Shown piece by piece: positions 17,446 through 17,753 of a stretch of DNA of 64,000 nt. The stretch is taken from assembly GCA_948852945.1 (NCBI GenBank), contig CAQPBJ010000004.1, positions 5,070 to 69,069 of the forward strand, in the 5' to 3' direction. The notes beneath the pieces were generated by a model. The model saw only the letters and a program-made list of their open reading frames with translations. It was not told the DNA's origin and did no database searches. A program made the translations under genes and the position numbers. Source of the DNA: an uncultured Clostridia bacterium. GTDB taxonomy: Bacteria; Bacillota; Clostridia; TANB77; CAG-508. Numbering within the stretch: the stretch's first letter is position 1; each line of letters opens with the position of its first letter.

Positions 17446-17484
17446 AAGAAGGTGTCGTAAAATTGGATACCTTCTTAGTTTTAT
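17446..17484 (+). terminator. Terminator hairpin after the response regulator gene
   Basis: AAGAAGGTGTC / GATACCTTCTT stem followed by AGTTTTAT. It is mirrored on the far side of the adjacent repeat. Confidence 0.5.
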
Positions 17485-17492
17485 ATGATATA

Positions 17493-17657
17493 ATCTTAAT
17501 CAATAATAATTATTTTAGTAAATTGCGCTAGCGACCAAACGAAATGAACGTAGTGAATGAAGTGCGAATTTGAGCAATCTACAATATAAAAACAGAGTTT
17601 TTTATTCGGAGATTGCGAAGAGCAAAATTTATTAAAATAATTATTATTGATTAAGAT
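17493..17657 (+). repeat. Nested-palindrome repeat family, copy 1: 101-nt core (17525-17625) between 32-nt inverted arms
   Basis: Arms 17493-17524 and 17626-17657 are complementary at 31 of 32 positions. The core is nearly identical to 21534-21637 except for one 15-17-nt block. Confidence 0.85.
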
Positions 17658-17753
17658 ATTAATACTATACAAAGGTATATAATTTTATGACACCTAGTTT
17701 ACTTTTACTTATTCATATGGTTTAATTTATTTACTAAAAAGGGGGAATATAAT

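What the first reader, a model, noticed from the sequence alone, without database searches (positions are those of the whole stretch)
17451..17693. Conserved ~100-nt core at the axis of a locus-specific long inverted repeat (copy 1), with covariation against copy 2
Core similarity:
- Core 17525-17625 begins GCGCTAGCGACCAAACGAA and ends GGAGATTGCGAAGAGCAA.
- It differs from 21534-21637 by only about 4 substitutions and 1 indel outside one block.

Flanking arms:
- The arms are unrelated in sequence between the two loci.
- Each pair is nevertheless almost perfectly self-complementary. Here it is 31/32 (ATCTTAATCAATAATAATTATTTTAGTAAATT); in copy 2 it is 30/30.

Internal hairpin:
- Here it reads AAAAAC-AGA-GTTTTT. 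In copy 2 it reads AACAAC-GGA-GTTGTT.
- That is an A-to-C change paired with a T-to-G change, so the stem is preserved.

Variable block:
- One 15-17-nt block is completely replaced between copies (ATGAACGTAGTGAAT versus GGTAAACAAAGTTTACC).
- This gives a constant scaffold with one variable segment.

Outer palindrome and promoter:
- The palindrome continues outward in degenerate form. GGTGTCGTAAAATTGGATACC (17451-17471) faces GGTATATAATTTTATGACACC (17673-17693), mirroring the upstream gene's terminator.
- An extended -10 (TGATATAAT, 17486-17494) abuts the left arm.

Interpretation: this fits either a structured ncRNA of about 170 nt with a long closing stem, or a small element that sits in or generates palindromes. 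I cannot match it to any RNA or MITE family I know.
Basis: seen in the sequence. Interest (0 to 1): 0.75.

Follow-up and report, generated by a model that had tools for sequence, protein, structure and literature searches.

The report
Dispersed palindromic repeat with structured head
The finding is one copy of an undescribed repeat family scattered behind genes in some uncultured Clostridia: a near-invariant ~100-base head that folds into a three-armed structure, closed by a ~31-base-pair stem whose sequence is free but whose pairing is always kept.

Summary
The window holds two full copies (17493-17657, 21504-21667) and a truncated third (58632-58691, minus strand).

- **Family size.** Public metagenomes gave about 25 more loci.
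- **Conservation.** Heads are 95% identical. The distal arms are 48% identical, against 41% expected at random.
- **Pairing.** Each arm pair is 95.5% paired, and 29 of 33 stem positions show changes on both sides.
- **Fold.** The head is a three-way junction.
- **Strand.** Stem mismatches are G·U on the head's plus strand 16 times and on the other strand twice, so one strand folds.
- **Position.** Copies lie about 80 nt after a stop codon, in either orientation, beside housekeeping genes.
- **Units.** Whole ~250-bp units, including an outer decaying palindrome, recur in unrelated contexts.
- **Turnover.** A sister lineage has empty sites or half-deleted remnants. Heads differ on orthologous arms.
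- **Databases.** There is no match in Rfam, plasmids, phages or IMG/VR.

Best reading: a new selfish-type intergenic repeat whose folded strand, probably RNA, is what selection sees. Its function and its mobilising partner are unknown.

The parts
17450..17473 (+). Copy 1, left outer inverted repeat. It overlaps the terminator-like hairpin 17445-17477 that follows the HD-GYP regulator gene.
   Evidence: I2: 24 nt, 88% complementary to 17672-17695; I6. It is homologous to the outer repeat of L083, which lies in a different gene context.
17486..17494 (+). Extended -10-like TGATATAAT abutting the stem of copy 1.
   Evidence: Read. The consensus scan did not call it because there is no -35. The mirrored side carries a similar TATTAAT, so function is unproven.
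17493..17524 (+). Copy 1, P1 5' arm (32 nt).
   Evidence: 31 Watson-Crick pairs + 1 G·U with 17626-17657.
17525..17625 (+). Copy 1 head (three-way junction). J1/2 is 17525-17543. The P2 block (tandem G·A type) is 17544-17558. J2/3 is 17559-17573. P3 is 17574-17616. J3/1 is 17617-17625.
   Evidence: CM hit of 140.5 bits.
17626..17657 (+). Copy 1, P1 3' arm.
17672..17695 (+). Copy 1, right outer inverted repeat. Its last base is also the right edge of a 7.77-kb segment absent from the sister lineage.
21453..21480 (+). Copy 2, left outer inverted repeat (GTTGCCAATAGGGATGTTCTTTTTGACA). It contains a TTGACA that lies 17 nt upstream of TATATA (21498-21503).
   Evidence: I2/I13. Homologous outer repeats occur in L067a and L081.
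21504..21533 (+). Copy 2, P1 5' arm (30/30; it continues imperfectly out to 21494).
21534..21637 (+). Copy 2 head. Here P2 is the hairpin GGTAAAC-AAA-GTTTACC.
   Evidence: CM hit of 144.5 bits.
21638..21667 (+). Copy 2, P1 3' arm.
21682..21708 (+). Copy 2, right outer inverted repeat. It starts 1-2 nt after the stop codon of the minus-strand desulfoferrodoxin gene.
   Evidence: The whole unit 21453-21708 occupies the place of a plain terminator in the sister lineage.
58632..58691 (-). Copy 3, a half-copy. It keeps the last ~28 nt of the head (TTTTTTATTCGGAGATTGCGAAGAGCAA) plus the right arm. It lies in the 5' leader of an SbcD-like gene.
   Evidence: 90% over 60 nt to copy 1. The same kind of remnant occurs at L106 and L109.
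58703..58731 (-). TTGACT-17-TATAAT promoter-like site directly upstream of the copy 3 remnant.
   Evidence: Read. It was not tested.

Best explanation
**What it is.** This is a copy of an undescribed dispersed intergenic repeat of the selfish 'mobile/repeat' type, found in a clade of uncultured low-GC Clostridia.

**Anatomy (shown).**
- The full unit is about 250 bp.
- An outer imperfect inverted repeat encloses short asymmetric linkers.
- Inside these is a 29-33-bp perfect helix, P1.
- At the centre is a ~100-nt head. On one defined strand the head folds into a three-way junction: invariant junction strands, a peripheral hairpin P2, and a long hairpin P3.

**Evolution (shown).**
- Whole units have been copied to new places just behind stop codons, in either orientation.
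- Units are gained and lost between close lineages.
- They decay by deletion where they are no longer maintained.

**Mechanism (inferred).**
- The folded plus strand, most likely RNA, is the functional form. It could arise from co-transcription or from promoter-like sequence at the stem base.
- A lineage-specific trans-acting protein probably recognises this fold, either to process it or to mobilise it.
- Selection keeps the junction sequence and the 31-bp pairing.
- Gene conversion between copies keeps the heads alike, while each stem drifts through compensatory changes.
- Where a copy replaces a terminator, as at copy 2, its long hairpin followed by the retained T-tract probably serves as the gene's 3' end structure.
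For: **Family.**
- 25 true loci carry the 5' 19-mer, counting the window's two copies.
- The covariance model adds two more.

**Conservation.** Heads are 95.3% identical. Distal arms are 47.9% identical against 40.8% expected at random.

**Fold.**
- For the head with 12 nt of stem, 96.3% of cells pair against 83.8% when shuffled and 35-53% when slid. There are 91 double-change cells against 29.
- For P1, 95.5% pair against 60.9% and about 46%. 29 of 33 pairs change on both sides, and pairing stops at bp 31-32.
- Ungapped stems are 29-33 bp in 18 of 25 copies.

**Strand.**
- P1 mismatches are G·U on the head's plus strand 16 times and on the minus strand twice (p=0.0013).
- The alternative P2 form has tandem G·A pairs.
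- Outer arms show no such bias: about 50 against 50, 82% complementary.

**Repeat behaviour.**
- Contexts are 10 same-sense, 7 antisense, 3 convergent and 1 divergent.
- The head lies 45-133 nt from a stop codon, and 93-591 nt from the gene on the other side.
- Neighbours are DnaB, MinC, AddB, GroEL, CdaA and similar genes, with no transposase.
- Copies with homologous inner and outer arms have unrelated flanking genes.

**Turnover.**
- The sister lineage has a plain terminator at the copy 2 site and nothing at the copy 1 site.
- It has a clean empty site at MinC, and half-remnants at CdaA and DapL.
- One strain carries a 163-bp internal deletion of copy 1.

**Head exchange.**
- The same arms carry different heads (L087/L109, L080/L084b).
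- The same 15-nt P2 occurs on unrelated arms (copy 1, L067a, L084a).
Against: - No transposase, terminal motif shared by all copies, or clear target-site duplication was found, so mobility rests on distribution alone.
- No expression data exist, so RNA versus single-stranded DNA is open.
- Promoter-like hexamers are at background frequency and occur on both sides.
- The wobble count treats related copies as independent.
- All copies with exact-word matches come from a narrow clade, so covariation depth in the junctions is nil because they never vary.
- The trans-acting partner is purely inferred from decay in the sister lineage.
Confidence: 0.5

Rival explanations
1. A family of host small-RNA genes. 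Each unit would be a self-contained gene (insulating hairpin, promoter, RNA, hairpin). The three-way-junction RNA would bind a cellular protein, or be cut out of its long stem by RNase III, and would serve the cell rather than itself.
For: - Junction nucleotides are invariant and helices covary.
- The plus-strand wobble bias holds even at copies antisense to both neighbours.
- Copy 2-type units carry TTGACA/TTGATA/TTGCCA, then 17 nt, then TATATA/TATAGA, ending at the stem base.
- A branched long-P2 variant with its own compensatory change resembles an optional RNA domain.
Against: - Tens of copies in random orientation beside unrelated housekeeping genes is atypical for bacterial sRNA genes.
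- Copies are gained, lost and half-deleted between lineages that share at least 90% protein identity.
- Similar promoter-like hexamers face inward on the mirror side too.
- There is no terminator after the 3' arm.
Confidence: 0.2
2. A domesticated cis-acting 3'-end module, like REP or ERIC elements. What matters is the long hairpin behind a gene, acting as a terminator, an insulator against read-through, or a block to 3' exonucleases. The head would be a passenger or a protein landing pad.
For: - 24 of 25 copies abut a gene's 3' end, about 80 nt from stop codon to head.
- Copy 2 replaces a bidirectional terminator exactly between the stop codon and a retained TTTTAG T-tract.
- The two mismatches in its outermost 12 bp are G·U on the desulfoferrodoxin mRNA strand (reading, 66 sequence).
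- 5' arms are A-rich and 3' arms T-rich on both strands, as in bidirectional terminators.
Against: - A pure hairpin role does not explain 95% head identity, invariant junctions, or the wobble bias tied to head orientation rather than to the upstream gene.
- Many copies already have an ordinary terminator just outside them.
- Stems are AT-rich with a ~100-nt loop and usually no U-tract.
- Outer arms show no strand bias overall.
Confidence: 0.18
3. A new self-cleaving ribozyme or other catalytic or ligand-binding RNA carried by a repeat. This would parallel hammerheads in satellite or retrozyme repeats. The invariant junction strands would form the active core, and P1/P2/P3 would be free helices.
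For: - It is a three-way junction with about 43 invariant unpaired nucleotides.
- All three helices vary freely and covary, and P2 is variable in length.
- It is multi-copy, and no Rfam class fits.
Against: - Nothing tested here bears on catalysis.
- A 31-bp perfect P1 is not needed by any known small ribozyme.
- The junction strands (19, 15 and 9 nt) match no known catalytic core.
Confidence: 0.07
4. A DNA-level invertible switch (inverton). Recombination between the 30-45-bp inverted repeats would flip the head and change expression of the neighbouring gene.
For: - Perfect inverted repeats flank a ~100-bp segment next to genes.
- A promoter-like site lies upstream of copy 1, with a gene downstream.
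Against: - About 11 independent assemblies of copies 1 and 2 all show one orientation.
- The wobble bias is tied to head orientation, which frequent flipping would erase.
- Copies sharing asymmetric linkers (L067a, L081) have the head the same way round.
- P2 and P3 covariation points to single-strand folding, not a recombinase site.
- No recombinase gene is nearby.
Confidence: 0.03

Closest known systems
REP/BIME elements and REPINs (Enterobacteria, Pseudomonas; mobilised by RAYT tyrosine transposases)
   Same: - Both are dispersed non-coding palindromic repeats placed behind genes or between convergent genes.
- Both form a long hairpin in one strand, show paired changes in the two arms, and occur in tens to hundreds of copies.
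- Neither has a transposase adjacent to individual copies (own knowledge; PMC2817692 and PMC3733652, listed).
   Different: - In REP/REPIN the arm sequence is the conserved part, with a GTAG/CGTC tag, and the loop is free.
- Here the ~100-nt loop is 95% conserved and structured, and the stem sequence is free.
- No GTAG/CGTC tag is present, and no RAYT is known for this clade.
Bacterial MITEs that fold as long RNA hairpins (Correia/NEMIS, ERIC/IRU, bcr1, RUP)
   Same: - Both are 100-260 bp, non-coding and intergenic, with inverted ends.
- Both show presence/absence between strains.
- Both are often co-transcribed, and act as terminators or RNase III targets (own knowledge; review PMC10969869, listed).
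   Different: - MITE terminal repeats are conserved across copies and match a parent IS, with a defined target duplication.
- Here no terminal motif is shared across subfamilies, no parent IS was found, and no duplication could be defined.
'Mobile/repeat sequence candidates' of structured-motif surveys (e.g. MRSC-65-2; Nucleic Acids Res 2024, PMC11109978)
   Same: It meets their operational definition. It has multiple copies per genome, inconsistent orientation to neighbouring genes, and a covarying long stem. Whether the structure acts as RNA or DNA is left open.
   Different: - This is a category, not a family.
- MRSC-65-2 is a single long stem with a UYCCGG repeat and is sometimes found near transposases.
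- This element has a three-way-junction head and no such association.
Integron attC sites
   Same: In both, the pairing of a long imperfect palindrome is conserved rather than its sequence, and one specific strand folds (own knowledge).
   Different: - attC sites have conserved outer boxes and a variable centre, and they flank gene cassettes beside an integrase.
- Here the centre is conserved, and copies stand alone behind housekeeping genes.
Three-way-junction RNAs closed by a long 5'/3' helix (phi29 pRNA, bacterial Y RNA, hammerhead)
   Same: The overall architecture is shared: a long closing helix plus two hairpins around conserved junction strands.
   Different: There is no sequence or covariance-model similarity. 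Those are single-copy genes or have short defined cores. None has a 31-bp stem of free sequence repeated at tens of loci.

Membership tests
Any Rfam 15 family | Covariance-model match at or near the gathering score. | tested here: not met
   The whole window at gathering threshold gives only 4 tRNAs. Region 17300-17850 at E<=10 gives only noise hits outside the element. The long-P2 variant L066 gives only noise.
MITE | Small, non-coding, multi-copy, with presence/absence polymorphism. | tested here: met
   About 27 loci. P2 lengths of 13-18 and ~80 nt rule out a conserved reading frame. Empty or deleted alleles are seen.
MITE | Terminal inverted repeats conserved between copies and matching a parent IS. 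| tested here: not met
   Each copy has inverted ends, but the ends differ between subfamilies. The outer ends of copies 1 and 2 were found only at their own loci, not at IS-like elements elsewhere in the fetched loci. No transposase neighbours were found.
MITE | Target-site duplication of fixed length. | tested here: inconclusive
   TTAAT flanks the 163-bp deletion in L060. The MinC empty site shows no clear duplication. A systematic search of flanks found nothing consistent.
REP/REPIN | Conserved 20-40-nt palindromic arm with a GTAG/CGTC tag, and a variable loop. | tested here: not met
   Arms are 48% identical against 41% random, while the loop is 95% identical. No tag appears in the arms.
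REP/REPIN | A cognate RAYT gene in the genome. | not testable with these tools
   Only a 64-kb window and flanks of up to 14 kb were available. None of the proteins scanned is a Y1 transposase.
Invertible DNA switch (inverton) | Both orientations of the segment between the inverted repeats occur in a population. | tested here: not met
   All independent assemblies of copies 1 and 2 have the same orientation. The wobble bias is fixed to head orientation. Assemblies report only the majority state, so rare flipping is not excluded.
Retron non-coding RNA | Flanking a1/a2 repeats plus an adjacent reverse transcriptase gene. | tested here: not met
   Inverted flanks are present, but the neighbours are a response regulator, phosphoesterase, desulfoferrodoxin, DnaB, MinC and similar genes. 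There are also tens of copies.
Intrinsic terminator | Short G+C-rich hairpin directly followed by a U-tract. | tested here: inconclusive
   The scan calls no terminator at either element as a whole. Copy 2's outer stem is followed by the retained TTTTAG of the terminator it replaced. Most copies lack a U-tract after the stem.
Self-cleaving ribozyme | Site-specific self-scission of the transcript. | not testable with these tools
   Only the architecture is suggestive. There is no match to any Rfam ribozyme model.

The most novel reading that the evidence does not exclude
The head is a new functional RNA or single-stranded-DNA fold, recognised by an as yet unknown protein. That protein copies or moves the element by reading the structure (junction plus a measured ~31-bp helix) rather than terminal sequences. 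This would be a structure-guided mode of repeat propagation in Firmicutes, or alternatively a new ribozyme class riding on a repeat.
Probability: 0.15. Interest if true: 0.8.

Novelty: new variant of a known kind. Interest (0 to 1): 0.55.

Why it matters
- **An unusual conservation pattern.** Dispersed palindromic repeats are common, but here the pattern is inverted. The loop is a near-invariant three-way junction with covarying hairpins, and the stem is free in sequence but held to about 31 bp.
- **What that implies.** Recognition would be of a fold and a measured helix, not of terminal sequences. No described bacterial repeat family (REP, MITE, ERIC, Correia) works that way.
- **A route to the partner.** The head is intact in one lineage and decayed in a sister lineage with at least 90% protein identity. 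Comparing the two gives a concrete way to find the protein partner.
- **Practical points.** The element breaks short-read assemblies inside the head, and it can replace a gene's terminator. Both matter for annotating these gut and environmental Clostridia.

Tried and rejected
**Database and literature searches that found nothing**
- Rfam at gathering and at E<=10, on the window, on copy 1 and on the long variant.
- blastn of the head against 72,556 plasmids and 50,697 phages.
- Exact scans of IMG/VR with both head ends. One was a coding-sequence chance hit and the other gave nothing.
- The genome scan with the 3' 18-mer gave 42 loci, of which 41 were chance matches in coding DNA of unrelated phyla and one was real, L009.
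- Literature searches for Clostridial repeat families and for the motif strings found nothing.
- The C. perfringens family Clop-1 of Cozzuto et al. 2008 looked like a lead by size (93 nt, 44 copies), but its sequences are unrelated.

**Ideas rejected**
- Protein coding: the P2 indels break any reading frame.
- Retron: no reverse transcriptase gene nearby.
- Inverton: only a single orientation is seen.
- Insertion into pre-existing palindromes: no empty long palindromes occur in 64 kb.
- Arms made from the target: homologous arms occur in unrelated contexts.

**Tests that did not resolve**
- A fixed-position -10 box on the left side only. Hexamers occur equally on the mirror side.
- A strand bias in the outer arms tied to the upstream gene. 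None was found.
- Target-site duplications were not resolved.
- Looking up copy 3's locus in other strains failed, because all contigs break inside the head.

Full report
**1. Checking the observation**

- Core 17525-17625 and core 21534-21637 differ by four substitutions and one indel outside a 15/17-nt block.
- The flanking arms pair 31 Watson-Crick + 1 G·T of 32, and 30/30.
- The inner hairpin carries a true compensatory change.
- An outer palindrome, 17450-17473 with 17672-17695, is 88% complementary.
- TGATATAAT lies at 17486-17494.
- The head-end motifs occur 2-3 times in the window against 0.01-0.04 expected.
- The folds have z-scores of -8.5 to -12 on either strand.
- The two arm pairs are the two longest inverted repeats in all 64 kb.

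It keeps only the last ~28 nt of the head and the right arm. That arm is about 78% identical to the right arm of copy 1.

**2. It is a family**

No Rfam model matches at any threshold. Plasmid, phage and IMG/VR collections are also negative.
- A genome scan with the 3' 18-mer gave one real relative, an uncultured Clostridium MAG at 26% G+C, among 41 chance hits.
- A metagenome scan with the 5' 19-mer gave 25 stretches. Counting the window's two full copies, 25 distinct true copies carry the 19-mer.
- A covariance model built from 23 copies found two more, one of them degenerate.
- The source organism is an uncultured 'Clostridia bacterium'.

**3. Structure**

Across copies the head outside P2 is 95.3% identical. 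The distal 22 nt of the arm is 47.9% identical, against 40.8% expected from composition. Pairing is nevertheless kept.
- P1 has 95.5% of cells paired, against 60.9% in shuffles and about 46% when partners are slid.
- 29 of 33 P1 positions change on both sides, and pairing stops at bp 31-32.
- Ungapped stems are 29-33 bp in 18 of 25 copies.

RNAalifold gives a three-way junction.
- P1 is extended by GCU/AGC.
- P3 is GCAAUCU...AGAUUGC with an inner AAAAAC/GUUUUU hairpin.
- On head plus 12 nt of stem, 96.3% of cells pair against 83.8% shuffled. There are 91 double-change cells against 29.

P2 occurs in three forms.
- A 7-bp hairpin, NNNAAAC-loop-GUUUNNN, with G-C/A-U/U-A exchanges.
- A 6-bp form with tandem G·A pairs. 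Copy 1's AUGAAC-GUA-GUGAAU is of this type.
- A long branched form with two extra hairpins. It is seen in L066, L084b and L109, and has its own compensatory change.

The junction strands never vary: AGCGACCAAACGAA, GAAGUGCGAAUUUGA and GAAGAGCAA. P2 length differences exclude coding.

**4. Which strand folds**

In P1 the non-Watson-Crick oppositions are G·T or T·G on the head's plus strand 16 times, and A·C (a wobble on the other strand) twice. The binomial p is 0.0013. The bias holds at copies that lie antisense to both neighbours. The tandem G·A form of P2 is also strand-specific. So one defined strand is what selection sees. These data cannot separate RNA from single-stranded DNA, and the copies are not fully independent.

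**5. The full unit**

Outside P1 lie 15-25 nt of asymmetric sequence on each side, then a second, imperfect inverted repeat.
- The outer repeat is about 82% complementary and has no strand bias in its mismatches.
- Copy 2, L067a and L081 share this outer repeat (TTGYCARTRGGRAYGTYCTTTTTGMCA). Copy 1 and L083 share another (GGTGTCNTAAAAT...).
- None of their flanking proteins are related.
- So the ~250-bp unit, arms included, is what was copied. The arms are subfamily-specific, not made from each target.
- Within a copy the two outer arms are more alike (79-88%) than the same arm is between copies (71-75%; my reading).
- -10-like hexamers abut the stem base on both sides. Promoter-like sites are at background frequency. 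An own promoter is therefore possible but unproven.

**6. Genomic context**

Of the copies with both neighbours known, 10 lie sense between co-directional genes, 7 lie antisense, 3 sit between convergent genes and 1 between divergent genes.
- The head is 45-133 nt (median about 80) from a stop codon, so the unit starts within a few bases of the stop.
- The gene on the other side is 93-591 nt away.
- Neighbours are ordinary core genes: DnaB, TilS, MinC, AddB, GroEL, a tRNA synthetase, CdaA, FeoB and aspartokinase. There are no transposases or integrases.

**7. Turnover**

A sister lineage whose proteins are at least 90% identical was compared at five loci.
- **Copy 2 site.** It has a plain bidirectional terminator, in two variants whose stems differ by compensatory changes. 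In the window the whole unit sits exactly between the stop codon and the retained TTTTAG of the T-tract.
- **Copy 1 site.** It lacks a 7.77-kb segment (an NRPS, a histidine kinase and an HD-GYP regulator). The right edge of that segment is the last base of copy 1's outer repeat.
- **MinC site.** It is cleanly empty.
- **CdaA and DapL sites.** Remnants remain: the 3' end of the head plus the right arm. This is the same kind of half-copy as copy 3.

The model finds no intact head in 55 kb of sister-lineage DNA. One strain of the window's own lineage has a 163-bp internal deletion of copy 1 between TTAAT repeats.

The family therefore predates the split. It is maintained in one lineage and decays in the other.

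Heads also move between arms.
- L087 and L109 have orthologous arms, but one has the short P2 and the other the long P2.
- L080 and L084b have orthologous arms, but one has a normal head and the other a degenerate long-P2 head.
- The identical 15-nt P2 of copy 1 also sits on the unrelated arms of L067a and L084a.

This points to gene conversion between heads. Together with selection on the junctions, it explains uniform heads on divergent stems.

**8. Most likely mechanism**

*Shown:*
- A dispersed repeat with a strand-specific, covarying three-way-junction head.
- A closing helix held near 31 bp.
- Placement behind stop codons in either orientation.
- Copying of whole units.
- Lineage-specific maintenance.

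*Inferred:*
- The folded strand is RNA.
- A lineage-specific protein recognises the junction plus a measured helix, for processing or for mobilisation.
- Where the unit replaces a terminator, it supplies the 3' hairpin.

I put 0.5 on this composite. The rivals are listed here.
- A host sRNA gene family (0.2).
- A purely cis-acting 3'-end module (0.18).
- A new ribozyme riding on the repeat (0.07).
- An inversion switch (0.03). A single orientation in about 11 assemblies and the fixed wobble bias argue against it.

**9. Comparison and novelty**

[quoted passage not shown] It behaves like REP/REPIN, ERIC or Correia elements. It fails their defining features: no conserved arm or GTAG tag, no terminal repeat shared across copies, no parent IS and no defined target duplication. 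The inverted pattern, a conserved structured loop on a stem that is free but length-constrained, makes it a new variant of a known kind. No paper in the library contains its motif strings.

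Noticed in passing
window 58632-58731 (- strand): The truncated third copy (3' end of the head plus the right arm) sits directly downstream of a near-consensus TTGACT-17-TATAAT. It lies in the leader of an SbcD/SbcC-like operon (57530-58603, 55650-57530). The break is in the T-run of P3.
   Followed up: partly
window ~9924-17695: A 7.77-kb segment is absent from the sister lineage, where the HtrA-like gene and the phosphoesterase gene are 126 nt apart. 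It holds an NRPS (C-A-T-R, 1430 aa), a histidine kinase and an HD-GYP response regulator. Its right edge coincides with the end of copy 1's outer repeat, and no target duplication is seen.
   Followed up: partly
L106 4419-4500; L109 2434-2712: The sister lineage keeps half-copies at the CdaA and DapL loci. Like copy 3, both retain the 3' end of the head and the right arm and have lost the left arm. That makes three independent remnants with the same polarity, which is unexplained.
   Followed up: partly
L066 3920-4110 (-); L084 2971-3090; L109: A long form of the head has P2 expanded by two extra conserved hairpins (~65 nt). One shows a compensatory A-T to C-G change between lineages. There is no Rfam match.
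   Followed up: partly
P1 arms of all copies (A3): The 5' arm is A-rich (A 54%, T 32%) and the 3' arm is therefore T-rich. Because the unit is a palindrome, this holds on both strands, as in bidirectional terminators.
   Followed up: no
window 22169-24331 (-) versus L100-L103, L048: The Tex-like gene is one 720-aa ORF in the window. It is called as two ORFs (351 + 366 aa) in the sister lineage and in some other assemblies.
   Followed up: no
window 26929-41685 (-) and 43761-48080 (+): There is a 4918-aa ORF, and a 1439-aa ORF with no Pfam match. Neither was examined further.
   Followed up: no
window 58751-60331 (-): A TraG/VirD4-type coupling protein gene lies immediately upstream of copy 3, followed by small same-strand ORFs. 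This may be a remnant of a conjugative element.
   Followed up: no
L050-L053, L088-L094, L061, L062: Short-read (Logan) contigs end inside the head at all three window copies. One ENA contig (L061) begins with Illumina adapter sequence joined at copy 1's outer repeat. The repeat breaks or corrupts assemblies.
   Followed up: partly
window 55287-55545 (-), 42984-43056 (+): Four tRNA genes are present, three of them in a cluster.
   Followed up: no
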